Part shown: one piece after another, positions 47 through 20,000 of the stretch
Layout: the number at the start of each line of letters is the position of its first letter
Numbering within the stretch: position 1 is the first letter of the stretch
Source: Vicugna vicugna
Lineage: Eukaryota
Assembly: GCA_013265495.1 (NCBI GenBank)
Contig: MU058226.1
Coordinates: forward strand, 1,067,094 to 1,087,093
Reading direction: 5' to 3'
DNA length: 20,000 nt
Position numbers and translations under genes: made by a program
Notes under the pieces: generated by a model
What the model saw: the letters and a program-made list of their open reading frames with translations, nothing else
The model's database searches: none
What the model was told of the DNA's origin: nothing

Positions 47-1565
47 TACACAAAGAATTCCCAAAACTCAAAGACAATAAAACACCCATTAAAAAATGGG
101 CAAAAGACCTTAGCAGACACCTTACAAAGAAAATATGCAGATGTGGCAAACAAGCATATGAAAAAAGCTCCACAACTTAAGTCGTCAGGGAAACGTGAAT
201 TAAAACAATGAGATACCACTCAATACTTAATTAGAATGGCCAAAATTCAGAAAACTGACAACATCAAATGCTGGTGAGGATGTGGACCACAGGAATTCTT
301 ACTCATTGCTGGTGGGAATGCAAAATGGTATAGCTTCTTTGGAGATATTTTGGTGGTTTGTTACAAAACCTGCCATACGATCCAGCAATCGCCCTCCTTG
401 GTACTCGCCAAAGGAGTTGAAAACCCAGGTCCACACAAAAGCCTGCACACAGATGTTTATAGCAGCTTTATTAAAAACTGCCAGAATCTGGAAGCAATCA
501 AGATGTCCTTCAGTAGGTGGACAAATAGATTGTGGTATATTAGACAATGGGATACTTTCAGCGCTAAAAAGAAACGAGCTATGAAGCCTTGAAAAGACAT
601 GGAGGAAACTTAAATGCTTATTATTAGGTAAAAGAAATCGATCTGAAAAGGCTACGTCCTGTATGATTCTAACTATATGACATTCTGGAAAAGGCAAAAC
701 TATGGAGACAGTAGAGTTCAGTTTTTGCCAGAGGTTAGGGAGAGGGGAGGAATGAATAGGAGGAGCACAGAGGATTTTTAGGGCAGTAAAGAAACTCTGT
801 ATGGTATAATGATGGATACGCGTGTTATACATTTGTTCAAACCCATATAATGTACACCACTAAGAGGTAAACAAGCTAACTTTGGACTTTGAGTGATTAT
901 TGTGAACGAAAAATACTGCAAACCGTATCAGTAAACAAAGAATGCTGGAGCCATCAAGTCATCAGCTGCTGCCACCAACCCCTGAGTGGAGACAAGCCTG
1001 CAGCCCGGCCTCTGCAGCCACCCACAGTGGAGCACTCTGAGGGGACTCAGAACAAGAAAGGACAGGATACTCGCCCTAGATAGCTAGTTGCTTGTCAAAG
1101 GAATGATTTCAATGAGCTCAAATGTTTGCTTCCTCCCATACATAGAAAAGTGCTAAATTATTTAACTTGAGCTGTCTGGTTTTCTTCAGTCAACAAGTAA
1201 TCTTTTGATGTTCCAGCTACCTGGTTTTTGTTGTAAAACTCTTACATATCCTGGCTTCTCCCTACCTCTTCGGGGCAGTTTCTCAGAGTGATCTGAGAGG
1301 CTGTCATCCTGGCTTGAGTCCTCCTGCCAAATAAAACATAACTTTCAATTTTTAGGTTGTGCATTTATTTCAGTCGACATTATGATGTGTCAATGTAAGT
1401 TTACCCATTATAACAAATGTACCACTCTGTGGGGGATGTTGATGAATGGGGCGGTTATACATGTAGGAGGGGGGCAGGGGGTAAATGGAAATCTCTGTGT
1501 CTTCCTCTCAATCTCAATTTTGTTGTGAAGCTAATACTGCTCTAAAAAAAAAGCCTTAAAAAAAT
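47..1565 (+). mobile_element. Old L1 (L1MC-like) ORF2 end and 3'UTR, interrupted by a solo LTR at 901-1379
   Basis: L1 ORF2/3'UTR motifs (AAATGCTGGTGAGGATGTGG, CTCATTGCTGGTGGGAATGCAAAATGG, ATGTTTATAGCAGCTTTATT; after the LTR, TATGATGTGTCAATGTA...AACAAATGTACCACTCTG) ending in an A-rich tail ~1545-1564. Confidence 0.85.
901..1379 (+). mobile_element. ERV1-class solo LTR (479 bp)
   Basis: TG...CA termini (TGTGAAC...GTCGACA); 4-bp TSD TTAT at 897-900 and 1380-1383; AATAAA at 1330-1335; the L1 reads continuously once it is removed. Confidence 0.85.
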
Positions 1566-4219: not shown

Positions 4220-4248
4220 ACCGTACATCCTCTGGTAGGTCTGAGACC
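4220..4248 (-). pseudogene. First 29 nt of MHC class I exon 3 (GSQTYQRMYG)
   Basis: Typical intron 2 end (CGGTTTCATTTTCAGTT...GGGGCGTCAG|) followed by GG TCT CAG ACC TAC CAG AGG ATG TAC GGT; homology stops just before Cys101. Confidence 0.85.
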
Positions 4249-4446
4249 CTGACGCCCCCCCGCCCCCCACAGTGAATAAACCGAAACTGAAAATGAAACC
4301 GGGTCAAAGTCCCGCCGGCTCTTCCTGTGTCGAGAGTCGGGCGGGTTCCGCAATGTCGGGGTGACCTTCGAACCCGGAGACTCGAGGTACCCCAGCCCGT
4401 CCCTGGGGAGGGGGTCGTGAGCTGGACCCGGGCCCGCGCCGCTCAC

Positions 4447-4717
4447 CGGCCTCGCTCTGGTTGTAGTAGCCGCGCAGGGTGTTCAGGCCCACTCGGTACC
4501 AGTGTGCGTTGCCCTTCGCATTCCGTGTCTCCCGTTCCCAATACTCCGGCCCCTCCTGCCCCACCCACCGCGCCCGTGGCTCCATCCTCGGATTCGGGGC
4601 GTCACTATCGAAGCGCACGAACTGCGTGTCATCCACGTAGCCGACTTCCACGTACCAGGTCTCCCCGAGGCCAGGCCGGGATACCCCCGTTTCCGAAATA
4701 CCTCTTGGAGTGGGAAT
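4447..4717 (-). pseudogene. MHC class I exon 2 (alpha1), 271 nt, +1 frameshift near codon 9
   Basis: CAG|AT TCC CAC TCC AAG AGG TAT TTC (DSHSKRYF), then the shifted frame gives [87 protein letters not shown]. Confidence 0.95.
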
Positions 4718-5024
4718 CTGGGGGCGGGGAGGGGGTGAGACCCGGCCCGACCCTCCTCCGGGCGCGGGTCCCAGGATCTGATGTTGAAGGGGCGGAAGCG
4801 GGGCGGGGATGAGGGGGCTAGCGAGACGGAAAAGTGGTGGCAGTTCGAAAAAGAGCCAGGACCTCGGGGTGGGAGAGAGGAGAGGGCGGGCTAGAGGTGG
4901 GGTGACGGGTCTGGGCAGGGGGCGGCGACGTCGCACTTTCCCCGGGGGTCCTGCCCTCGCTACCCCGGGGCGGGCCCCTCGCTCCTCCCCCGCAGAGGCC
5001 GTTCCCTCCCGACCCCGCACTCAC

Positions 5025-5097
5025 CCGCCCAGGTCTGGGTCAGGGCCAGGGCCCCCGAGAGCAGCAGGAGGAGGGCTCGGGACTCCCAGATCCCCAT
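5025..5097 (-). pseudogene. MHC class I exon 1 (leader [24 protein letters not shown])
   Basis: 73-nt coding exon (canonical length), ATG at 5097, donor G|GTGAGT at 5025/5024. Confidence 0.92.
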
Positions 5098-6804: not shown

Positions 6805-6966
6805 TTTTTCTTTTTACTGTTATTTTTATTTATTTATTTTCATGTTTCATTTCTAAATTTTTTTGGGGGGAGTAGGTGATTAGGTTTTATTTATTTATGG
6901 GACTTGAACCCAGGACTTCCTGCATGCTAAGCAAGCACTCTACCACTGAGCTATACCCGCCCCCCC
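6805..6966 (-). mobile_element. tRNA-derived SINE (camelid Vic-type)
   Basis: Minus strand GGGTATAGCTCAGTGGTAGAG (A box)...GTCCTGGGTTCAAGTCCC (B box), then AATAAATAAAACCTAATCACCTACTCCCCCC and an A-rich tail. Confidence 0.85.
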
Positions 6967-8734: not shown

Positions 8735-9200
8735 GATGTGCCTCCATGTTCTTCAGCCAAAGATCACCTGGAGCACATCTGTGGGCAAGCAGGTTGGATT
8801 TATTACTGGGAGCAGCGAGGGAGATCACACTGCCTCAGGCCCACGGTGTCTGAGCGTGAGTATTAGACAGAACGTACATACGGCTTTGGTTGGGTGATTC
8901 TGAGGAGGGATTTGGAAGCAGGGGCTCATTCTAGATTGAATGTTGTTAGGAAGTGAGGGAAAATTCTGTGACTGGGCACCTGAGTAAACCGGGAGGGAGG
9001 GCAACTAGAGCAAGGATACAGCTGTAACTAGACAGAAGCAGTGGTCGCTGTATGAGCACAGGGAGAGGTCCAGTACATTGTGAAGGTCACAGTGCCGCCT
9101 TGTTTGGTCTATATGGAATGATGTCATGGTCTTGTCTTGTCTCCCTGTGTCATGGTCTCAGGTGTCCTTGTGTAATGTCAATGTTCCAAATTGTTTTCTA
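8735..9200 (-). mobile_element. Old LTR fragment (ERV1, MER31/MER67-like)
   Basis: AAAGATCACC..GGTTGGATTTATTACT..GCAGCGAGGGAGATCACAC.. contains a reverse AATAAA-type signal and resembles this LTR group; family uncertain. Confidence 0.5.
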
Positions 9201-9349
9201 ATATTCTTTAGTTATTTTTCATTTGGGATATAGTTACTTTAAAATATTGAATTCAGAAGGACAAAGCAGACTCCAAGCACAGGAATTGGTCTCACACTTA
9301 CACGGGCCTCAGTGTTGTGAGAAGCGGAGCTGGGGCTCCTCAGTCGGTC

Positions 9350-9520
9350 ATGTTAATGTCTCAACAATTTCAATATGCTTACATTTTGACACAGAAACTT
9401 CTCTTTTAGAAATTTATCCTAAGGAGATGATTAGACATGTTCTCAAAAATACACATTCAAGGATGTATCTTGAATTGTGGTTTATAGAAGTAAAGAGTGG
9501 AAATAATCTAAATGCTACAA
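9350..9520 (+). mobile_element. Ancient L1ME 3' fragment
   Basis: TTTGACACAGAAACTTCTCTTTTAGAAATTTATCCTAAGGAGATGAT..CAAGGATGT..TGGAAATAATCTAAATG. Confidence 0.55.
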
Positions 9521-9549
9521 TCACTGTAATGATGGTCACTATGAACAGA

Positions 9550-9740
9550 GGAGAACTAACTATGTCTCAGGCAGTCATTCCATGTGATTTACATACAGGG
9601 TCAATTTATGCCTCAAAGCAAACCCATGAGGGGCCCAATGTGTGATCCTTTTGTGCAGACAGGGAAAGGGAGCCTCAGAGAGGATAAGGAGCATCTATTT
9701 CGAGGCCACCTTGCATCAGGATCTGGAGACACTGGAGGAG
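9550..9740 (-). mobile_element. MIR SINE fragment
   Basis: AAACCCATGAGG..TTTTGTGCAGACAGGGAAAGGGAGCCTCAGAGAGGATAAG..GAGGCCAC resembles the MIR core. Confidence 0.6.
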
Positions 9741-9959
9741 AGCAACAGTTAGGCGCCTGCTGATGGGAAATGGGCTCTGCTGTGCGGGAGAGGGACAGAA
9801 ATGACCGAGACAGATGCACATCAGGACTGCGCTAAGTGCCGTGAGGAAGAGCTGATGATGCCATGAGAGCAGATAACAGGAGTCCTGACAGGTCCCCTGC
9901 TGCTGATATCAATAATGTCTGAAAGATGGAAAAGATAAATGGAATGTGAAATAAAACCA

Positions 9960-11380
9960 GAATTCTATATAATTATATACAATCATAGAATGAAAAAGAG
10001 CTCTTGGGAATTAAAAATGTCATAGAATGAATACTTGAATAGATGAAGTGGAAAATTAGAGTCATACTGTCAGTAAGTAGTTGGAAAAATAATGACAAGG
10101 AGGAGACAAGACCTATTAGAATACTAGTCTGTCAATCAAGGGATTCTAACAAGTTAATAAAAGGAGTTTCAAAAATAATGGAGAGTAGGAATCATAAGAA
10201 AACTCAGATTAAGACCAGCATTTACATCCTGAATGTCCCAACCAAACTCTTAGTGCAGACCCAGCCCAAGACAATCACAATGACATTTCAGACAGAGGGT
10301 GGTAAAGAAGAGACCTTGAAAACTTCTTGGGGCTAGAAGATAGTGAAGCAATGCCTTCTGAATTCTGGGAGAAACAAGTATTTCCAACAGAGTTCAATAT
10401 GAAGTCAACATGTAAGGCCTAGGGGAGCCTAAGAGATTTCAGAGTTTCAGTGTTGTAATTTCCGTGCTCCTTTCCCTGGGACACTATTAGGCAAAGTTGG
10501 TGGGGGAGGCAGGGATGATGGAGAAAACAAGAAACAGGAAATACATGGGATCCAAACCTCAGGGGAGCCAAACAAGAGAGGGAGAGGGCTGCCCAGTAGG
10601 AGGTGAAGGAGATCGGGATGTCAGCCCTACCCCAGGTGTGCAGGGACCCCGCCCACAGTCCGCAGTAGGCAGGACTGAGGACTGTCGTAAGGATGGGTCT
10701 GTGTAAAGAGATGAAGTTAGTGGAATATCAGATGTGCTCAAAAATATTTGGGAAGACTTAGGGTCTGTGGAGAGTTTTGTAATGATTTAAAATGAATACA
10801 ACATAACTAAGGTATTATTTATTCCAGGGAAAATAAAAAATCATTCAAGGAAAGGAAAGTCTACTAAATGCTCAGTTGTGACTAACATTTCCATCATCAT
10901 AACAATGCAAACACTGCACCGTGAGCTAATCAAAATGGTAAGATTTATAAATTTATGAATTATAATTATAGAGGGAGGATGGTGGTGTGGGAAAGAACCA
11001 ATTAACTAAAGATGGTATATAAAACTGAAAAACAAGGAAGGAGTATTATAAACATGCTATTTAGAGGCATAGAAGAAATAATTAGAGAATCAGCTAAAAG
11101 TGTTTTAAAAAAATTTGGGGGGGAATTAGCTTTATTTATTTATCTATTTTTTTGATGAAGGTACTGAAGATTGAACCCAGGGTCTCGTGCATGCTAAACA
11201 CATACTCTACCACTGAGCTATACCCTCTCCACTCAGTTAAAATTTGAAAAATAGCTTGTCTATGAGATTTAAGAGACGGGGGGACATGGAACAGTGAGCC
11301 ATCTGCTTGGATATCAAGTCTTGTAGAAGTATTTTACTTTTTAAAACTATGTGCATATATCCATCATCTAAAAATAAGAG
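9960..11380 (+). mobile_element. HAL1-like (half-L1) element, decayed
   Basis: AAAGAGCTCTTGGGAATTAAAAAT..AGCAATGCCTTCTGAATTCTG..AAGAAACAGGAAATACATGGGATCCA.. resemble HAL1; explains the 10043-10336 ORF. Confidence 0.6.
11102..11230 (-). mobile_element. tRNA-derived SINE (camelid Vic-type)
   Basis: Minus strand GGGTATAGCTCAGTGGTAGAG..CCCTGGGTTCAATC; flanked by imperfect TSD AATCAGCTAAAAGT / ACTCAGTTAAAATT. Confidence 0.85.
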
Positions 11381-11419
11381 GACAACCTAGTAAATGTGAG
11401 ATGGACTCGGGAACTGTTC

Positions 11420-11970
11420 TGTAAGAAGAGTCATAGACATGGGGCAAGTGTTGGGAGGAAACTGGACATAGAGTGGCAGATGTTTATGGGAGAGTTTTGT
11501 TTTCATTGATTTAGATTTGTTTGATTAATTTTAATGGGAGCAATGGCAGCTGTAGGCAGGAACAAAGGAGGCAGCAGGAGTGAGAAACTGCTGATACAGG
11601 GGACAGAGGAGCCTCATCCTGTGCCCTCTCTGAGAGGCAGCCTTAGACAGGAGGGACCATCCATCATCACTGGGGGGAAGGTGAGGATACAGGTGCAGAT
11701 GCAGGAGTGTGGGAGGATGATGATGTCATTCTCACCTGAGTCCTCTTATTTTCTGAGTGAAAACAGAGCTCACCTTTAAGAATAAGGAGTGAGGAGGAAG
11801 TGGAGGGGATTGAGGAGGGAGGAGGAAGTGAGAGACAACCCTCTTAGGAGGTGGGAGAGTGAGCTGACTCAGGACATGGCATCTGAGAGTGCAGGGTGGG
11901 GGCCACTGAGGTCTGTGCTCATCAGCCTAGAGAAAGTTCCAGCACTTGGGCAGCAGCAGAAGGATGTGTA
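11420..11970 (-). mobile_element. Ancient L2 fragments
   Basis: Purine-rich decayed sequence with L2-like motifs (e.g. TCCTCTTATTTTCTGAGTGAAA); weak. Confidence 0.4.
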
Positions 11971-12689
11971 ACAAAGTGAAAGAAAATGCAGTTATTGTTG
12001 GTGTGAGAATTATAGTTCATTTTTCTTTGTCATTTTAACATTTATACTTTGTTTTACAGTGAATATACATTATATTATATACTATACTTTACACATATAC
12101 ATTATAATAAGGATTTTAAAACTTTGTTAAATTTTTAAAAAGAAAGGCAGATGGATAGAAAAAGACAAGAGCAAGAACAGGGGAATGCAGAGCTGGAGCC
12201 ACGCAGGATCTTTCCCTTCTTTTGGGGGTGTGGTCATTTATTAGTATCTTATAAACTCTTTGATACTTCTAACAATAATTTTTTTTGTATTTTATGTGGC
12301 ATTTTTAGCTATATCCTTGGACAAATTTTTCCATACAATCCAGCCCATCTTTTCCAGCAATCTAATCTCTAGGCAGAAGAGCTCAGTCAAAAGGTGATGG
12401 GTCTGGAGTAGAGGATCAGAATGTGCGTCCTGACACATGAGCTGAAGAAGAATGTCAAGTGTTTCACAAGTGTAAGGGATTTTAATGTCATGTGCTTTTT
12501 GAAAACATTATTTATGTGCACAAAAGAGAATTCAAAAGATACTCAAGAGTATACAAAAATAAGTAAGTCATATTGTTTCCCTCATCCCCTGGTCACCCAA
12601 GTCCTCTACTCAGAAGCCACTGCAGTTAGTAATTTCTCACTTATCTTCCCAGAAAAATATATTTATGCATTGCTGTATACTGTTATCTG

Positions 12690-13790
12690 AGTAAAAGCTC
12701 CAGCCATGGACAGAGAGAAATTATTTGCAAATTCACATATCTGATTCAAGACCTGTTTTAGAACATACATAGAACCCTTAAACTCAGCAATATGAAAGCA
12801 AACAACAATTTAAAAGTGGAGAAAAGTCTGATAAAGATTTCATTATAGAAGATTTATTAGTGGAAATGGGTATGAAATGGTGGTCAACATCATGTTATCA
12901 GGATATGTAAATAAAAACAACAGTGATGCACCATCACACCTATGAGAACAGCTAGAATCCAGGAATAGGAGATGCCAAGTGCTGAGCAGGACGTGGAGCC
13001 GCAGAAGCCCCCCCACCCCACCCCACCGCCTCTGCACTGCTGCAGGAATGCGAAGCAGTGCAGCCACTGCAGGGACGGTCAGTAGTTTCTTATAAACACT
13101 GACACAGACTCACCGTCCAACCTGCTGATCACTCCAGTACTGTGTCATCTCATTTGAAAACTTATATTTGCACAAAACCCTGCACAGCAGTGTTTATAGC
13201 AGAGCACCCCTCAAGTGTGGGCTTCGCTTAGTGGCTTTCTTCTAAAGACTACAGTATGAAAAGCGGGGAAGGAAAAGTAAAAATCCAGGAGAAACCTGGG
13301 AAACCTACCGTAGCTAGGTGACGAGGTGAACTTGTTAGTGATAATCAAGTGGAGAGCACACAGCCTCGATGTGTGGAGAACGTCACTTCATCTCTGTGGT
13401 CTTTTTCCCCCAAACCCTTTGCCCCAGTCAATCAAGTCAAATGAGTCTACAACATCCCTGAGCAGTACACCCCATGTCATCAAAACCGGGGGATGTCTGC
13501 CACAGCCCGAGAAGTCTGAAGGAGACAGGATTGGGACTCAGTGCAGTGTGGTTTTGATAGGATCCTGGATCAGAAAAAAGGAAAATTAATGAAATCTAGA
13601 TAAATTTTAGAATTCAATAATATTGTATCAATATTGCTTTATTAGCTGTGACAAATGTATGACAGTGATATAAGATATTCCCATAGGGAAACTGAGTGTG
13701 GGACATACAGTAACTCTGTACTAACTTTGTTACTTTTTTGTAAATCTCAAACTATACTAAAATTCAAAAAATTTTAATATTTGCCAGAAG
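12690..13790 (+). mobile_element. Old L1M ORF2 end followed by an L1MC/MD-type 3'UTR
   Basis: GAGAAATTATTTGCAAA..AGAACCCTTAAACTCAGCAATA; AAGTGTGGGC..TCACTTCATCTCTGTGGTC; GTGACAAATGTA..AACTCTGTACTA..TTTTTTGTAAATCT. Confidence 0.7.
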
Positions 13791-14050
13791 TGAAGAGGCA
13801 GTGGAAGAAACTGATCAGCTTTTGAGTTTTCAGGTTGTTTTCATCAATGAGGTTGTGAAAGGGGTATTGAGGAGAAAAGACGGGAACCTTAGAGTCAGGG
13901 CAGGGTTCCAGAGCTCTCCTCTCCTCCACTCCCTGCCCGCCCGCAGCCCGAACCCAGAACTACTCAGAAGGCACCTTCATCTCCCATCTCTGACTCAGAC
14001 CACAGCCCCTCTGCTTCCAGGACTGTGCTGAGTAGGAGAGAGCAGAGTGG

Positions 14051-14069
14051 TGGCGCCCTCGTGTGGCCA
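14051..14069 (-). promoter_or_regulatory. Candidate CTCF binding site
   Basis: Minus strand TGGCCACACGAGGGCGCCA vs CTCF consensus TGGCCACCAGGGGGCGCTA; lies in a short unique GC-richer segment between L1s. Confidence 0.55.
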
Positions 14070-14099
14070 CAGGGATGATGACAGGAGACCTGAGCTCCC

Positions 14100-15510
14100 T
14101 TTTTAGTCATTGTTCTGACTATTCAAAGTCCTTTGTATTTGCATATAAATTGTAGACTCAGCAGGTAAGTTTCTTAAGAGACACTGTCAGAGTTTTGATA
14201 AGCGTTTAGGATTCCGAATTGAATTGCTCTCAGTGCATAGATTGATTTTGGGAGAACTGGGGCCTTAACAATATTGATGATGCCAATAAGTGAATACGGA
14301 GTTTATCCCTATTTCTTTAGTTTTTCCTTACTTTCTCTCAGGCACACTATGTAGACTTCAGGGTTCAAATCTGGCAAACTCTCTTTAAAATGATGCCTGA
14401 ATATTTTATTTTGATGCTATTATGAATGGAATTTTAAATTATTCATTTTCTTAATGTTACATTACTGGTACATAGCAACCCAATTGACCTTGTAGCCTGC
14501 AGTCTCCTTTTATTTACCTGTTAGTTCTAGAAGCTTTTTTGGGGGGAATTTCTATGCACACAATCATGTCACCTGCAAATAAATCCTTTTTTATATTTAT
14601 ATCTCTTTGATTGCTTTTCATTGATCAATGCTCTGGCTAGGACCTCTAGTACAATAGAAACATACTAGATGTTTAGTAGAAATGGTGAGTGTTGGCATCC
14701 TTACCTTGTTCCTTACATTAAGTAGAAAGTATCCAGTCTTTCACCATAAAGTATGATGTCAGTTCTAGCTTTTCCGACGATGTCATTCATCAAATTAAGC
14801 AAGTGGGTTTTTACTCCCAGTGTGCTGAGAGATTTGATACATTAATATGATATATTACAGATTTCTATATATTCATCCAAAGGTGCCTCCTGAGATAAAT
14901 TGTTCTTGCTCCTAACATGTTGGCTTCCACTTGCTGATGTTTCCTTAAGGATTCATGAGTGACATTGATTTGAAGTTACTTTTTTTGACGTCTTTATCTG
15001 GTTTTGGTATCAGGGTATTACTAACCTCATAAAACAATTTGGAAGCCGTTTCTTCCTCCTGAATTTTCTCCAAGATTTGTATAGGACTGGTGTTGATACT
15101 TCAATGTTGGATAGAATCCACCAGGCTCCATCAGAGCCTGGAGTTTTCTTTGTGGAATTAAAAAAAGTTATGTATTTAATTTCTTTAATTCATAGGAGAT
15201 TAATTAGTTTTCCTATTTGTTCTTAATTCAGTTCAGTATATGATGTCTTTAAAGAAATTGGTTCATTTTCATACTCATTATCTAATTTATTTGCTTGAAT
15301 TGTTTGTAAGAGTCTCTTATTATTCGTTTAAAGTGATAAATCTCCCTCTAATGCTGCTTTTGAAACATCTCACAAATTTTTACTTCATTTCCATTTAGTT
15401 AAAAAGATTTCTAATTTCCCTTCTGATTTCTTCTTTAAGCCAGGATTATCCATGAGTTTAAATTGTGTTGGTTAATTTCTGAATGTTAATAAATTTTCAA
15501 ACTTCCTTTG
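14100..15510 (-). mobile_element. Old L1M ORF2 fragment
   Basis: T-rich antisense L1 motifs (GCTCTGGCTAGGACCTCTAGTACAAT, GGCATCCTTACCTTGTTCCT, TCTGGTTTTGGTATCAGGGTA, TGTTGGATAGAATCCACCAG). Confidence 0.8.
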
Positions 15511-15729
15511 TCCTTCATTCTCACTATTTACTATTAGAAGTTGTTGAATTTATAGGTTTCAAAACACGGCACAACTATTATTTCCAAAAGACTTCAGGAC
15601 ACCAACAATAAGAAAAAAGAAAAGGCAAACAAACACGTTTTTCAAAAGTTGTGCAATACAGGGTAATGCTAAACTGATGATTTCCCTAACTCTCAGAGTG
15701 ATGAAGGTACAGCCCAGGCACGCTGTGGC

Positions 15730-15901
15730 TCAGACTGCCTTTGGGCTCAGTCTGCAACATCAGCCCTGCCCTGGTCTCCAGCTTGCTCACCCAGCCGGCG
15801 CATTTTGGAATTGTAGCCCCACAGTCGTGAGAGCCAATTTTTAACTATATATGTACGCGTGTCTTGGGGCTCTGCATCTGTGATGCACCGTGTCTAATGC
15901 A
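15730..15901 (+). mobile_element. MLT2-like (ERVL) LTR 3' fragment
   Basis: CAGACTGCCTTTGG..CTGCAACATCAGC..TGGTCTCCAGCTTGC..GTGAGAGCCAATT..TCTAATGCA. Confidence 0.6.
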
Positions 15902-16629
15902 GGACTGTTACAGGCACTAACAACAACAGCTAAACCCTTGCAGTTTTCAAGGAATTTCTAAGGCAGGTGGTGGCTGTGCAATCACGTGACACCCACTGGC
16001 CAGGAAAGCACATGAGCAGAAGAAACTCTTCTTGCTTTGGGGGAAGGTGGAGGATGAGGTGAACCATCCCTGAGGAAGTAGCGTTTCAGCAGAGATGAAG
16101 GGGGCAAGACCAGAGGTTAGGGCAGGTCGCTGGGGTGGAATGTGCCAGATGAGGGAAGAACAAGGGATCAGAAGTCCTGACATGGAAAGGACACATTTGA
16201 GACCAGGGTGGCTGGGACGAGGACAGTTGCAGGCTGTGGCTTCTATCCAGGGGCTCCCTCCCTCTGCCTGCTCTACCTCCACACTCAGCACGTGGACCCC
16301 CCGGCTGATTCAGAAGCCCTAGGATTACAAAATAGTAGGACCCGGAGGCCCTGGGCCTTCTAGCCTAGTGGCTTTGTTCTGGAGATACTGAAGCTGAAGC
16401 CACAGAGGGAAGTGACCTCCCCAGGAAACGGAGGGTGTGGCACGGATGGAACTCGCTGACTCTGAGGCCAGGGGGCTTTCCACGAAGACAACAGAGGTGA
16501 TCTGGGGGAGGGGACTTTGTGGGGAGAGTGAGGTAACATCCAGGGGGTGAGATGCAGGAGACCTGGGGGGGAGTCCTACTTTCAGGCAAATGACACCTCT
16601 TTCTCTGCCATGAGAGCGTTTCCCAAACT

Positions 16630-16850
16630 CCCCCACTCCTCCTCATCCTCTGCTTCTTCAAGCCCTGCTCAAGAACGACCTCCTTCTGGAACGTTTTCTT
16701 ATGGAGGTGTTGAACTAACATTTCCACTTTTTCTCTCCAAATACTCTCAGTGCCTATTCAGTGTGGGATTTGAATTCACTTGTGAGGTTGCGGTACAATT
16801 GTTTTCCCATCATTTTATGTTTGTGCCCTGTCTCTCCTATTACACACACA
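16630..16850 (+). mobile_element. Ancient L2 fragment
   Basis: TTCTTCAAGCCCTGCTCAAGAACGACCTCCTTCTGGAACGTTTTC..TTTATGTTTGTGCCCTGTCTCTCC resembles the L2 3' region. Confidence 0.45.
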
Positions 16851-16950
16851 GACACACACAGGACAAACACCCTCATTTCTCACACACTGGGAAGGGAGCT
16901 CACTCAATGAATAGCGGAGCTTACTTTGAATCCACTGATGGTAACCCCAG

Positions 16951-17239
16951 GTCACACTCTCTGCAGCATTTCTGTGTGGCTGTGTCTGACCAGCTCCCGG
17001 AGTCCCTGCCTTAGTGCTTTTGGTTCATGGATGACAACTCTTCATCCCCATGACAGTGAGGAGGTGAAGGCGAAGTCTTGAGTTCAGGGCTTGATGCAGG
17101 AGCCAAGTTGCTTTGATGACGAGATCAGGATCTTCACAAGTCAGATTGAGATTTTCCAATAAATCTGAAAAACTGCAGTGATACTACAACCAAACAACGG
17201 AGCGTGGTCTGAACAAACAGCATCTGCTGCAGAAAGCAG
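16951..17239 (+). pseudogene. Divergent MHC class I-like alpha1 exon (multiply frameshifted)
   Basis: CCCCAG|G TCA CAC TCT CTG CAG CAT TTC = SHSLQHFCVAVS; across frameshifts [84 protein letters not shown]. Confidence 0.85.
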
Positions 17240-17389
17240 GTGGGTGCCTGGGATAACAGGGGAAGCAGTGCTCATCACCTCACCCCGGTTGTAGGAGCGG
17301 GAAGTCCTCTGGACATGTGTTCCCACAGGGACAGGATTGGCAGGTGTATGTGTACAAGTTATCCCTTGAGAATGAAGGCTGGGGTCTTT

Positions 17390-18380
17390 GAGCCATTAAT
17401 TAATTAATCATTAGCTCAGCAATCTCATTACATCACGGATACATGCATATAATTTGGGGGCTCTGGACGTGGGAGAACAGACCGTTGTAACCTAGTACTT
17501 GTCCTGAAAGAGCTTACTATTAATATGGGGCGGCACCCATACTTCTGGGGACGCCTTATTGACACTTTGATGCACATGCAGTGATGTCATAGATCAGAAC
17601 TATCTTTAGGAGGAGAAGCAGAGAAATTGTTTACTCAAGTTCATAGGTGTGACACCGTGGCGGTTAGGGAGAGTTTATGAATGAGGTGGATTTTGAATGA
17701 TTTGTGTGTGACTGTGTGATTAATGTGTAAGATTCGTGCTGACGAAGGACAAAAAGGAAAAAATGTTTCAAGGAGTCAGGAGTTAGTGTGCGCCAGGGTG
17801 GGGTAAATTTGACACAGTGAGTTTAGGAGATATGTTGTCATTTAATAATTTCTAGTTAATGTCTCTTGAGTGTTTAGCAGTATTGAAAGTTTGTGAAAGG
17901 CTTTGAGTGTTCATTCAAGGCATCAACCAGTGAGAAGTACAACTCAAGGTGAATAACGAGACTGTTCAGATTTTACCACTTGAATCTGTTAGGAGCATGA
18001 ATTCAACAAAGGTTTACCAGATGGTCACATTCCAGGCACCCACGTAGTCCTGCCTTCTAAGGGCTCACAGTGTAGGAGGAGGGAGTGACACACAGTGATG
18101 TTGGTAAAGTGTGTAAGGGTTGGACTAAGAGCTTGAGCGGGGGGCTGTGGGCGCACCCTGGCGGGTGTGGTGAACCAGGCTGGGGCAGTCCCGGAATTAT
18201 TTGTATTTGATTCTGAAATTCACTCAGCAGCTTTCTCAGCCGAAATTTGGTGCTTGTTAGTGTTGAGTTGTTTGCATCTCCAGCACCTCAAGGACTGAGC
18301 ATGGTGCCCACTCTTATGTTCATAGTGTGCCCTGTGACTCTGTTCTCAGGAACTTGTACTCAGAATCTGAGACATTGGCA
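17390..18380. mobile_element. Ancient L2 fragments within the class I-like intron
   Basis: CATTAATTAATTAATCATT.., CTTGTCCTGAAAGAGCTTACT, GTCCTGCCTTCTAAGGGCTCACAGTGTAG resemble L2 3' ends. Confidence 0.5.
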
Positions 18381-18610
18381 GAGAAGAGACCTGTGGGGTC
18401 ATCATGTAGCCCTCCATTTACAGAAGATACAGAGAACCGTGGAAGTTAAATAACTTTCTTAAATGACACAGTTCATGGCAAACCCCAAATCTGTAAGTCC
18501 CCATCCAATGCTTTTTCGATACATCCTGGAAAAGAGTGTAGCCCACTCCCCAGTGCAGAGCTGACGGCAAGTAAAAGAGATCAGAGTCAGGGAACCACAT
18601 CAGTTTATCT

Positions 18611-19483
18611 TACAGAGGGAAACCAAATATATGTGTTTTCGACACCAACCGATTCTGACACTGACTGCCTGAGACCCCAGCCATGAAGGGCTCAGTCCCC
18701 CAAGACTGGCCCCACTTCAGATGCCAATTCAGCTCCATGTTGTTACCTAGGCTTCTGACCAAGTGGCTATAAATCAGGGGTTCCCATGGCCTCCTGCTCT
18801 GGTTTGACAATTTGCTAGGATGGTTCACAGAACTGAACAAAGTGTTTCCTGACTAGATTATCGGTTTATTACAGAAAGATACAACTCAGGAAGTTCCAGG
18901 GGCAAGATGCATGGATTAGGAGGGTGTAGAGCTTCCGTCCCATCTGCACATGTGTCACCCTCCTAGCACCTCAATGTACCCCCAGTACCGACGCTCTCTG
19001 GACTCTGTTCTCTCTGTGGAGGCTTCATTACATAGACGTGGTTGATTAAACCATTGGCCACTGTGACTGAGCTCAGTCCCAGCCATTCCTCCTTCCGGGA
19101 GTCGGTGATGAGGATGAAAGTTCCAACCTCCCAATCCCAAAGTTGGTTCCCTGGGCAACGAGCCCCCATCCTGCGGTTATCAGCTTGTTAACATAAACTC
19201 AGGTGGGGTTGTGAGGGGCTTGTGATGAAGGACAGGTATATTCACTTTTATGCTCAGACCTGATCCAGGAATGGAGGACAACAGACTGCATATTATAAAG
19301 AGACGCTTTTGTCACCTTACTGCTCTGGAGCTCTTTCAGAAACTGCGAACAAAAACCACGTATTATAATAAGAGATGCTCTGCTGGGCTCAAGGTTTAGG
19401 AGGTTACAAAGGCTGCAGGAGCTGTGTGCTGGGGCCCTGGATGACACAAAAACATATCCTTCTTACTGTGTCACAGTGTCACA
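18611..19483 (-). mobile_element. MER21-like solo LTR (873 bp), antisense within the class I-like intron
   Basis: Minus strand begins TGTGACACTGTGACACAGTAAGAAGG; shares motifs in reverse with 2547-3336 (GGAGGCTTCATTACATAG, CCATTGGCCA); TSD ATCT at 18607-18610 and 19484-19487. Confidence 0.8.
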
Positions 19484-19616
19484 ATCTAGAATGTGAATGT
19501 CCCCTAAGGAGAAGCCAAGAGAATAGGAGGGGTATGAGGGGGCAGGGATCATGGATGGAGAGGCCTCAGAGGCCCGTCTGCCTGACTGACACTGCCTGGT
19601 CCTGGGGGCGGGCCAG

Positions 19617-19868
19617 CCCCCGCCCCTCCAGTTCACCTACGACCGTGATTTCTGGGAGGACGGCAGGACCACAGGGCCCTGGCTGTGATGGTGACGACTC
19701 CCTGAGCCTGGATATGGACTCTCGGCAGAACAACGCAGTCTCCTTCACGGCCGCTGCACAAAAATGGGAGGCCAGGGGTATCTTCATAGAGAAAGGGTGT
19801 ATTTGAGGAGTGCGTCCTGTGGCTGCAGAGAGACTTGGAGCTCGGAGGGGAGAGTGTGAACCACACTG
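19617..19868 (+). pseudogene. Divergent MHC class I-like alpha2 exon (frameshifted)
   Basis: GGGGCGGGCCAG| acceptor context; LQFTYDRDFWEDGRTTGPW / GCDGDDSLSLDMDSRQNNAVSFTAAAQKWEARGIFIEK / ECVLWLQRDLELGGESVNHT G; donor position reads GG rather than GT. Confidence 0.85.
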
Positions 19869-20000
19869 GGAATGACCTCCCGTGGCCCACCCAGTCCTCC
19901 CCCAGCACCCAGCCTTGGCCAGTTCTCTCTCCGCGGTGCTGGGGGCTCCCCAGGGCCCATCAAGCCAAGGGGACTCGGACATGCCCTGTGGGATGGATGG

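What the first reader, a model, noticed from the sequence alone, without database searches (positions are those of the whole stretch)
16951..19868. Hidden, highly divergent MHC class I-like gene (alpha1 + alpha2 exons), fragmented in the ORF track
Seen: two plus-strand segments 2.4 kb apart, each with an AG acceptor and a phase-1 end, translate across frameshifts to class I alpha1 ([17 protein letters not shown]..YYNQT) and alpha2 (LQFTY..EDG.TTG.W..DGDD.LSLDMD..KWEA..ECVLWLQR.LELG). Established: exon order, exon phase, the N86-type sequon and the Cys164 equivalent are class I hallmarks. GVP, 'EDGxTxG' and 'DGxDxLSLD' are closer to non-classical lineages such as MR1, ZAG and HFE than to classical class I. 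The long, repeat-filled, CpG-poor intron 2 also differs from the ~200 bp GC-rich intron of classical genes. Inference: this is a member of an ancient MHC-encoded non-classical lineage, possibly the little-studied one I recall being called MHX1 (unverified). It is not a paralogue of the neighbouring gene. Alpha3 and TM exons would lie beyond 20000.
Basis: partly seen in the sequence, partly recalled or inferred. Interest (0 to 1): 0.85.

Follow-up and report, generated by a model that had tools for sequence, protein, structure and literature searches.

The report
Dead copy of a non-classical MHC-I gene
The two exon-like segments are real, but they are the decayed remains of a duplicated copy of a conserved, little-studied non-classical MHC class I gene (camel BL3-7, related to pig SLA-11) whose intact copy lies 36 kb upstream.

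Summary
Window 16951-17239 and 19616-19868 (+) are relics of exon 2 (alpha1 plus a linker) and exon 3 (alpha2) of a class I gene.

They are not a working gene. Against an intact paralogue 36 kb upstream on the same strand (C1666:1042515-1051400), the relics carry:
- 16 indels, 13 of them not multiples of three
- at least five in-frame stops
- Cys101 changed to Arg
- a GT-to-GG exon 3 donor
- no leader exon anywhere in the window

The upstream gene is 99% identical in alpha1 to the Camelus dromedarius protein named "BL3-7". Exons and introns align to it (blastn E 1e-154; exon identity 78-80%).

In a 43-row tree the relic falls inside this lineage (100/100). Classical class I, MR1, HFE, ZAG, MIC and FcRn all fall outside. 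The lineage has orthologues in artiodactyls, whales, horses, rhino, hedgehog, sloth, afrotherians, lagomorphs and tree shrew.

A second relic on contig C6949 is about 90% identical and shares most lesions, so the gene died before a later block duplication.

The claimed closeness to MR1/ZAG/HFE is not. The name "MHX1" could not be verified. Interest is modest.

The parts
16726..16950 (+). 3' end of intron 1 of the relic. It is homologous to the last ~200 bp of intron 1 of the intact paralogue and ends in the acceptor AG at 16949-16950.
   Evidence: blastn block 16726-18293 against C1666:1047379-1048946. Intron segment K2P distance 0.31.
16951..17239 (+). Exon 2 relic: the alpha1 domain plus the lineage-specific 12-residue linker. 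It is 289 bp against 297 bp in the intact copy, with eight 1-base deletions, +2, +1 and -3 indels, and in-frame stops in every local frame. The GT donor at 17240-17241 is kept.
   Evidence: Pairwise DNA alignment, 77.8% identity (253 of 325 ungapped columns over the exon plus 20-base flanks), with an indel list. Local-frame translations. tblastn with P0121.
17240..19615 (+). Intron 2 relic. GC 0.47 and CpG observed/expected 0.29, measured on 17240-19614 (2375 bp).
   Evidence: The intact copy's intron 2 is 1883 bp.
18592..19487 (.). An 896-bp interspersed repeat inserted in intron 2. It is absent from the intact paralogue and present in the sister relic on C6949 at 97% identity.
   Evidence: Gap between blastn blocks. 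Own-genome DNA search found 1528 first-look candidates; 40 were scored, and the dispersed copies are 66-81% identical.
19616..19868 (+). Exon 3 relic: the alpha2 domain. It is 253 bp against 276 bp, with deletions of 1, 8, 6, 4 and 4 bases. The Cys101 codon is now CGT. The Cys164 equivalent is kept.
   Evidence: Pairwise DNA alignment, 80.5% identity (236 of 293 ungapped columns over the exon plus 20-base flanks). tblastn. Residue table.
19869..19932 (+). Start of intron 3. The donor GT is mutated to GG at 19869-19870. Homology to the intact copy runs to 19932. The contig ends at 20000.
9357..20000 (.). A block duplicated elsewhere in the MHC. It matches C6949:484762-474042 in reverse orientation at 89.8% identity over 10.8 kb, and that block carries the sister relic (psi2).
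   Evidence: blastn. tblastn of P0121 on C6949.
4220..5097 (-). Context: a truncated classical-type class I pseudogene. Leader at 5097-5023, frameshifted alpha1 at 4715-4445, first residues of alpha2 at 4249-4220, then lost. Its counterpart lies next to psi2 on C6949 at 82% identity.
   Evidence: Pfam MHC_I E 3.9e-31. 89% identical to camel class I..

Best explanation
Window 16951-19868 holds exons 2 and 3 of an unprocessed (duplicative) pseudogene, here called psi1. It belongs to the non-classical class I lineage represented by camel 'BL3-7', which the literature relates to pig SLA-11.

Shown:
- An intact paralogue lies 36 kb upstream on the same strand: leader at C1666:1042515-1042577, exon 2 of 297 bp, intron 2 of 1.9 kb, exon 3 of 276 bp, then classical-like alpha3 and TM exons.
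- psi1 arose from it by genomic duplication that kept the introns.
- psi1 then lost coding capacity through frameshifts, stops, loss of Cys101 and loss of the exon 3 donor.
- The already dead copy was later duplicated again, together with a classical-type pseudogene, giving psi2 on contig C6949.

Inferred:
- psi1 makes no class I protein and has no antigen-presenting function.
- The first duplication is old. Intron K2P distance is 0.31-0.38, which is 4 to 8 times the psi1-psi2 distance. At commonly assumed mammalian neutral rates that means several tens of millions of years, around the base of the artiodactyl or camelid stem.
- The parent lineage itself probably binds peptides like classical class I, because all eight peptide-terminus residues are conserved in it.
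For: DNA homology to the upstream gene covers exons and introns (E 8e-155, 3e-90, 4e-57). Exon identities are 77.8% and 80.5%, with 11 indels in exon 2 and 5 in exon 3.

The upstream gene reads open across exons 2-4. Its exon 2 translation (alpha1 plus linker) is 99% identical to P0121, the 'BOLA class I ... BL3-7 [Camelus dromedarius]' protein.

Tree of 43 rows and 194 columns: lineage plus psi1 100/100; classical 100/100 and separate; psi1 groups with the artiodactyl members at 58/78.

Identity of psi1 is 54-65% to lineage members, 35-38% to classical and 19-28% to MR1, HFE, ZAG, MIC and FcRn. The locus labels were checked against solved structures for MR1, MIC, HFE and ZAG. The FcRn label rests on recall.

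psi1 shares the lineage's 2-residue alpha1 deletion and its exon 2 linker extension, with the same donor position.

psi2 shares most lesions: five or six of the 1-base deletions in exon 2, the TGA stop, the 1-, 8-, 6- and one 4-base deletions in exon 3, the Cys101 loss and the GG donor.

No leader homologue was found in the window by blastn with word size 7 or by tblastn.

The stretch is not an assembly artefact. Eighteen DNA-type runs from three organism codes and at most 7 of the 8 holder studies (P1-P7) hold 0.80-0.97 of its words.

Against: Pfam's own MHC_I model does not reach its cut-off on any by-reference reading of the relic. The best is 12.6 bits at E 0.1. The genome-wide PF00129 scan missed the locus.

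Classical class I proteins alone give only marginal tblastn hits here, best E 0.085. Thirteen of the 81 panel proteins hit the alpha2 end and 38 of 81 hit the alpha1 start, at E 2.4 or worse. Noise hits of similar strength occur elsewhere in the window.

Silence at the RNA level was not tested.

The timing of the duplication is unresolved. psi1 as sister of the camel gene is not rejected (p-AU 0.158), and its position at the base of the artiodactyl members has weak support. A long neutral branch can be pulled towards the base of a tree.

That pig P0135 is SLA-11 itself was not checked by name. The link runs only through the paper's statement about BL3-7.
Confidence: 0.93

Rival explanations
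1. It is a working, highly divergent class I gene, and the apparent frameshifts are sequencing or assembly errors.
For: Exon edges, the NQT sequon, the Cys164 equivalent and the exon 2 splice sites are kept.
Against: There are 16 indels in two exons, at least 5 stops, Cys101 to Arg and a GG donor. Most of these lesions recur in an independent locus, psi2, that is only about 90% identical. The words of the stretch are held by 18 DNA-type runs of three organism codes. No leader exon was found.
Confidence: 0.02
2. It is a decayed copy of a classical class I gene or of a MIC gene, so the resemblance to a separate lineage is an artefact of decay.
For: The best solved-structure matches of the 61-residue alpha2 read-through are classical class I chains (E 0.0016-0.018).
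Against: The tree puts it inside the BL3-7 lineage at 100/100 and outside the classical clade at 100/100. MIC lies far away. Intron DNA aligns to the BL3-7-type gene. The relic has the lineage's linker extension and long intron 2. It is 27% identical to this genome's MIC.
Confidence: 0.01
3. psi1 is the remnant of a second, separately evolving paralogue of the lineage that arose before the artiodactyl radiation. It is not a camelid-specific duplicate, and intact or decayed orthologues would exist in other mammals.
For: Intron K2P distance to the camel gene is 0.31-0.38. psi1 keeps many residues seen in horse, whale and pig orthologues where the camel gene has changed (alignment). It is 64-65% identical to the horse and rhino proteins against 62% to the camel copy. 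It is placed outside the 11-row artiodactyl set, which is starred at 96/87, and joined to it only at 58/78.
Against: A camel-specific clade is not rejected (p-AU 0.158). Neutral long branches drift towards the base of a tree. Retained ancestral residues also follow from an early duplication on the long camelid stem. No second gene per species stands out among the 32 hits.
Confidence: 0.2
4. The relic is transcribed and has a non-coding role, for example as a lncRNA or as a donor or acceptor in gene conversion among class I genes.
For: In psi2 and in the intact gene the alpha3 region is closer to a classical alpha3 (87.9% and 89.1%) than the two are to each other (79.8%). This suggests sequence exchange among class I loci here.
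Against: No promoter or leader was found. No test of transcription could be completed.
Confidence: 0.1

Closest known systems
Camel BL3-7 gene (P0121, Camelus dromedarius; the intact copy in this genome at C1666:1042515-1051400)
   Same: Same lineage and same exon-intron plan. Exon 2 carries the linker extension, intron 2 is long, and DNA homology runs through the introns.
   Different: BL3-7 reads open through leader, alpha1, alpha2, alpha3 and TM. psi1 has 16 indels, stops, no Cys101, a dead donor and no leader. It shares 62% of readable residues (104 of 167).
Pig SLA-11
   Same: The literature relates camel BL3-7 to SLA-11 and calls it a locus of unknown function and unusual structure (PMC6829570, passages). 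SLA-11 is called functional in the Babraham pig assembly (PMC11496355, passage). A Sus scrofa protein, P0135, sits in the same clade.
   Different: I did not confirm by name that P0135 is SLA-11. psi1 is a dead copy.
Sister relic psi2 at C6949:477139-474175 (-)
   Same: About 90% identical over 10.8 kb, with the same lesions and the same 896-bp repeat in intron 2.
   Different: psi2 lies mid-contig, so its alpha3 and TM exons can be seen. Each copy also has a few private indels.
Class I pseudogenes and gene fragments of the human MHC (HLA-H, -J, -K, -L and others; from general knowledge, not tested here)
   Same: Unprocessed class I relics left by block duplications inside the class I region.
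   Different: As I recall, the human ones derive from classical-type genes. This one derives from a lineage for which the searches here returned no primate member.
MR1
   Same: An EDGxTTG-like motif in alpha2, and a conserved, old, non-classical status.
   Different: Separate branch in the tree. Only 28% (psi1) and 39% (intact copy) identity. This genome's MR1 lacks five of the eight peptide-terminus residues that the lineage keeps.

Membership tests
MHC class I superfamily (alpha1-alpha2 fold, Pfam PF00129) | Significant match to the family profile | tested here: inconclusive
   Pfam itself: 0 of 7 fragments. 1 of 5 read-through pieces, at E 0.1 and 12.6 bits, below the 28.3 cut-off. A home-made class I profile of 20 rows, without this lineage, scores the X-masked read-through at 83.5 bits against at most 2.4 in 300 shuffles. 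Homology to a gene whose exons hit PF00129 at E 1e-21 and 6.5e-24.
MHC class I superfamily (alpha1-alpha2 fold, Pfam PF00129) | One exon per domain with phase-1 boundaries | tested here: met
   Exon 2 has its AG at 16949-16950 and GT at 17240-17241. Exon 3 has its AG at 19615-19616. The exon 3 donor position is kept but mutated to GG.
MHC class I superfamily (alpha1-alpha2 fold, Pfam PF00129) | Alpha2 disulfide Cys101-Cys164 and the N86 sequon | tested here: not met
   Cys164 and N86 (NQT) are kept. Cys101 is Arg. This fits decay, not a different fold.
BL3-7 / SLA-11 lineage | Falls in the lineage's clade, apart from classical, MR1, HFE, ZAG, MIC and FcRn | tested here: met
   100/100 support for 22 lineage rows plus psi1. 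Classical clade 100/100.
BL3-7 / SLA-11 lineage | Two-residue deletion in alpha1, a 12-13-residue linker at the end of exon 2, and a long intron 2 | tested here: met
   Alignment. Same donor position after the linker. Intron 2 is 2375 bp here and 1883 bp in the intact copy. That these features define the lineage is my reading of the aligned rows, not a published definition.
BL3-7 / SLA-11 lineage | Intact coding gene with a leader exon | tested here: not met
   Indels, stops and donor loss. No leader homologue in the window. It is therefore a pseudogene member.
'MHX' lineage (recalled from a 2016 PNAS paper on MR1/TRAV co-evolution) | Identity with the published MHX sequences | not testable with these tools
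   The paper is not held. No MHC use of the name appeared in seven searches. The taxon spread seen here (present in rabbit and hare, no primate or murid among the hits) agrees with what I recall of that paper. That is a lead only.
MR1 | Clusters with MR1 | tested here: not met
   Separate branch. 28% identity. The MR1 locus of this genome was confirmed against solved MR1 structures (E 7e-53).
MIC | Clusters with MIC | tested here: not met
   Separate branch. 27% identity. The MIC locus was confirmed against solved MICA/MICB structures.
Classical class I of artiodactyls | Nests in the classical clade | tested here: not met
   The classical clade (13 labelled rows plus one unlabelled class I-like row, C1666:542k) has 100/100 support and excludes it.

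The most novel reading that the evidence does not exclude
psi1 and psi2 are the last traces of a second, independent paralogue of the conserved BL3-7/SLA-11-type lineage. It would have arisen before or at the base of the artiodactyl radiation, so this supposedly single-copy eutherian non-classical gene once had a sister gene, which may still be intact in some mammals. The parent lineage keeps all eight peptide-terminus residues and both cysteines across placental orders, which would make it a conserved presenter of peptide ligands whose partner receptor is unknown.
Probability: 0.2. Interest if true: 0.5.

Novelty: new member of a known kind. Interest (0 to 1): 0.3.

Why it matters
The relic itself is ordinary. 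MHC class I regions are littered with dead duplicates.

Its value is as a pointer and a marker. It led to an intact member of a class I lineage that is conserved across placental orders, has no solved structure of its own (the best PDB match of P0121 is HLA-B7), and is described in the literature as of unknown function.

The pair psi1/psi2 also gives dated landmarks for the block-duplication history of the camelid class I region. It flags loci that gene predictors and Pfam scans miss.

The taxon spread of the lineage (no primate or murid hit) and its retained peptide-binding residues make the parent gene a reasonable target for ligand and receptor studies in livestock species.

Tried and rejected
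- Pfam on 7 single-frame fragments: none hit. One coordinate error was corrected first.
- Solved-structure search with the 39-residue fragment: nothing.
- Solved-structure search with the 27-residue fragment: the top five hits were designed TPR proteins, which are spurious. Class I and MR1 came in at E 0.12-1.3.
- The 59-residue alpha2 piece: two class I chains at E 0.9.
- The search for homologous proteins with a 44-residue alpha2 piece, longer proteins: 1 candidate, none scored. A 39-residue query was too short.
- tblastn of 81 of the 120 classical-type proteins (those of 330-420 residues) against the window: only marginal hits at the relic, and comparable noise elsewhere, for example on the minus strand at 19831-19995 with E 0.014.
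- Leader exon search in the window: nothing credible.
- Sequence beyond base 20000: the contig ends there.
- Own-genome search with intron 3 of the intact copy, to find a continuation of psi1 on another contig: only a dispersed repeat matched.
- Earlier findings of this scan: nothing by place, by words or by sequence.
- Literature on 'MHX' or 'MHX1' as an MHC lineage: none in seven searches. The recalled PNAS paper could not be fetched by DOI, a guessed PMC id or PubMed id. One search was badly posed and uninformative.
- Pfam on 9 other long ORFs of the window: none hit.
- Rfam: only two tRNA-like matches, which I read as SINE-type repeats because they also match intron 1 of the intact gene.
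- Supplements of the cited papers were not consulted.
Full report
**What is in the window.** Exon-like segment 1 starts at 16951, right after an AG at 16949-16950. Segment 2 ends at 19868. The window lies in a mammalian MHC class I region. On the minus strand, at 5097-4220, sits a truncated classical-type class I pseudogene. It has a leader, a frameshifted alpha1 and the first residues of alpha2. Pfam MHC_I scores it at E 3.9e-31, and its alpha1 is 89% identical to camel class I proteins.

**First tests were weak.**
- None of 7 single-frame fragments hit Pfam.
- Of 5 by-reference read-throughs (stops as X, two +1 frameshifts passed with four-letter steps), one hit MHC_I. It scored E 0.1 and 12.6 bits, below the 28.3-bit cut-off, at profile positions 119-177.
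- Against solved structures, the 61-residue alpha2 piece matched 328 sequences at E up to 10. The top one was a designed TPR protein, which is spurious. The following rows were almost all classical class I chains, at E 0.0016-0.018 and residues 119-183. None of the 60 listed was MR1, HFE or ZAG.
- Shorter pieces gave nothing or marginal hits.
- A word-indexed search of 5.8 billion proteins with a 44-residue piece found nothing.
- tblastn of 81 classical-type proteins gave only marginal hits at the relic.

**The key result came from the window's own genome.** The window is the last 20 kb of contig C1666. A six-frame PF00129 scan listed 33 exon matches. The candidate was not among them. The list did include an intact-looking pair 36 kb upstream on the same strand: alpha1 at C1666:1047582-1047842 (E 1e-21) and alpha2 at 1049759-1050025 (E 6.5e-24), separated by about 1.9 kb. 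Their translations match the candidate strikingly.

**DNA homology to the upstream gene.** blastn shows three collinear blocks covering exons and introns:

| Window | Upstream gene (C1666) | E-value |
|---|---|---|
| 16726-18293 | 1047379-1048946 | 8e-155 |
| 18294-18591 | 1049314-1049611 | 4e-57 |
| 19488-19932 | 1049631-1050105 | 3e-90 |

Window 18592-19487 has no counterpart in the upstream gene. It is an interspersed repeat with many dispersed copies in the genome.

**The upstream gene is intact.** It has a leader at 1042515-1042577, an exon 2 of 297 bp, an exon 3 of 276 bp, and classical-like alpha3 and TM exons. It reads open when spliced. Its exon 2 translation (alpha1 plus linker) is 99% identical to P0121, named 'BOLA class I histocompatibility antigen, alpha chain BL3-7 [Camelus dromedarius]'.

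**The candidate is a pseudogene (psi1).**
- Exon 2 (16951-17239) is 77.8% identical to the intact exon. It carries eight 1-base deletions plus +2, +1 and -3 indels.
- Exon 3 (19616-19868) is 80.5% identical. It carries deletions of 1, 8, 6, 4 and 4 bases.
- Every local frame has stops.
- The Cys101 codon is CGT.
- The exon 3 donor is GG.
- No homologue of the leader exon or its flanks exists in the window.
- With the right comparator the homology is highly significant. tblastn of P0121 gives summed E 1.1e-11 for alpha1 and 1.5e-17 for alpha2.
- A codon-aligned, X-masked read-through scores 83.5 bits against a class I profile built without this lineage. The maximum over 300 shuffles was 2.4 bits.

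**Which lineage.** The intact gene's alpha1 finds 32 proteins (of 59 candidates) at 64-99% identity. They come from camel, whales, sheep, deer, muntjac, hippo, pig, peccary, horse, donkey, rhino, hedgehog, sloth, manatee, elephant, aardvark, golden mole, elephant shrew, hare and rabbit. Cluster look-ups add water buffalo and tree shrew. No primate, rodent, carnivore or bat appears. That search needs shared words, so absence is weak evidence.

An index-free search with alpha2 shows a gap. Seven single-domain representatives are 67-85% identical. The next ones are at most 55% identical and are sauropsid class I, from duck and Komodo dragon.

I built a maximum-likelihood tree of 43 rows and 194 columns.
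- Of the 32 hits, 25 were taken. Four near-duplicate or unnamed rows were dropped: P0127, P0129, P0136 and P0142.
- I added 10 classical proteins and this genome's classical, MR1, HFE, ZAG, MIC, FcRn and C9038 loci.
- The lineage plus psi1 form one clade at 100/100. The classical clade is separate at 100/100.
- Within the lineage, the gene tree largely follows the species tree.

The MR1, MIC, HFE and ZAG labels were checked against solved structures. The FcRn label rests on recall.

Identities over alpha1 plus alpha2:

| Comparison | psi1 | Intact copy |
|---|---|---|
| Lineage members | 54-65% | 66-84% |
| Classical class I | 35-38% | 43-45% |
| MR1 | 28% | 39% |
| HFE | 26% | 36% |
| ZAG | 26% | 36% |
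| MIC | 27% | 30% |
| FcRn | 19% | 26% |

**History.** A second relic, psi2, lies on contig C6949 at 477139-474175 (-). Window 9357-20000 aligns to C6949:484762-474042 at 89.8% identity. The classical-type pseudogene has a counterpart there too, at 82%. psi1 and psi2 share most lesions, so the gene was dead before this block duplication. psi2 has an alpha3 exon about 640 bp after exon 3, and a TM exon. This makes it likely, though unproven, that psi1's alpha3 lay just past the contig end.

Intron K2P distances are 0.31-0.38 between the intact gene and either relic, and 0.05-0.07 between the relics. At commonly assumed mammalian neutral rates (my assumption) the first split is several tens of millions of years old. 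In the tree, psi1 joins the artiodactyl members at only 58/78. A camel-only clade is not rejected (p-AU 0.158). The timing therefore stays open: early camelid stem or pre-artiodactyl.

**How it works.** Most likely it does nothing as a protein. With no leader, a dead splice donor and broken frames, no class I chain can be made. This is inferred from the sequence. Transcription could not be tested.

**The parent lineage.** All orthologue rows with a residue at the position keep Y7, Y59, Y84, T143, W147, Y159, Y171, C101, C164 and N86. K146 is kept in 19 of 20. The list of peptide-terminus residues comes from established knowledge of classical class I. I infer that the parent gene binds peptide-like ligands in the classical manner. 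psi1 has lost Y7, Y59, C101, T143 and Y171.

**Comparison with what is known.** A review of the camel MHC states that BL3-7 is 'a locus of unclear status', is closely related to pig SLA-11, and has 'unknown function and unusual structure' (PMC6829570, passages read). A pig assembly paper lists a functional SLA-11 (PMC11496355, one passage). A 2026 review counts SLA-11 among the classical loci without confirmed function (PMC13584530, passages).

I recall a lineage named MHX from a 2016 PNAS paper. That paper is not held, and the name was not found in an MHC sense in seven searches (look-ups).

**Verdict.** The thing is an unannotated, unprocessed pseudogene of a known but poorly studied non-classical class I lineage. 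It is a new member of a known kind and of modest interest.

Noticed in passing
window 851-889 (+): A 13-codon stretch ending in a stop is 12 of 13 identical to the C-terminal 13 residues of P0121, the camel BL3-7 protein model (tblastn E 0.003). If real, the predicted last exon of the intact upstream gene lies about 16.6 kb beyond its TM exon, inside this window. No AG acceptor is obvious just upstream in this genome.
   Followed up: partly
window 4220-5097 (-): A truncated classical-type class I pseudogene: leader, frameshifted alpha1, and alpha2 cut after about 10 residues. It is part of the same duplicated block as the relic. Similar copies with the unusual 'WY.EV' alpha1 motif lie on C6949 at 437495-438257 and 487232-488031.
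   Followed up: partly
G000:C6949:473850-473228 and C1666:1050572-1051203: The alpha3 regions of psi2 and of the intact BL3-7-type gene are each closer to a classical alpha3 of this genome (87.9% and 89.1%) than to each other (79.8%). In the pig and rabbit orthologues, too, alpha3 looks like a classical alpha3 by eye. This hints at sequence exchange between this lineage and classical genes in exon 4.
   Followed up: partly
G000:C9038:271627-273059 (-) (loci L018, L023): An intact-looking class I-like alpha1/alpha2 pair (PF00129 E 3e-21 and 2e-19) that is none of classical, MR1, HFE, ZAG, MIC or FcRn. It has no solved-structure match at E 1e-21 or better and is 42% identical to the BL3-7-type gene. 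The lineage was not identified.
   Followed up: partly
window 18592-19487 vs G000:C6949:474555-475450: The repeat inserted in intron 2 is 97% identical between psi1 and psi2. The flanking intron is 93-95% identical and the whole block 89.8% (gaps included).
   Followed up: no
window 11156-11227 (-) and 6897-6953 (-): tRNA-like Rfam matches (50.6 and 34.1 bits). They also match pieces of intron 1 of the intact gene, so they are probably tRNA-derived SINEs and not tRNA genes.
   Followed up: partly
window 9000-12500: A strong positive GC skew (0.16-0.32) on the + strand over about 3 kb. The cause was not examined.
   Followed up: no
window 15760-16726: About 0.95 kb of relatively GC-rich DNA (GC 0.51-0.53). 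It separates two short stretches homologous to intron 1 of the intact gene, where that gene has only about 150 bp. It is probably an insertion. Its nature was not determined.
   Followed up: no
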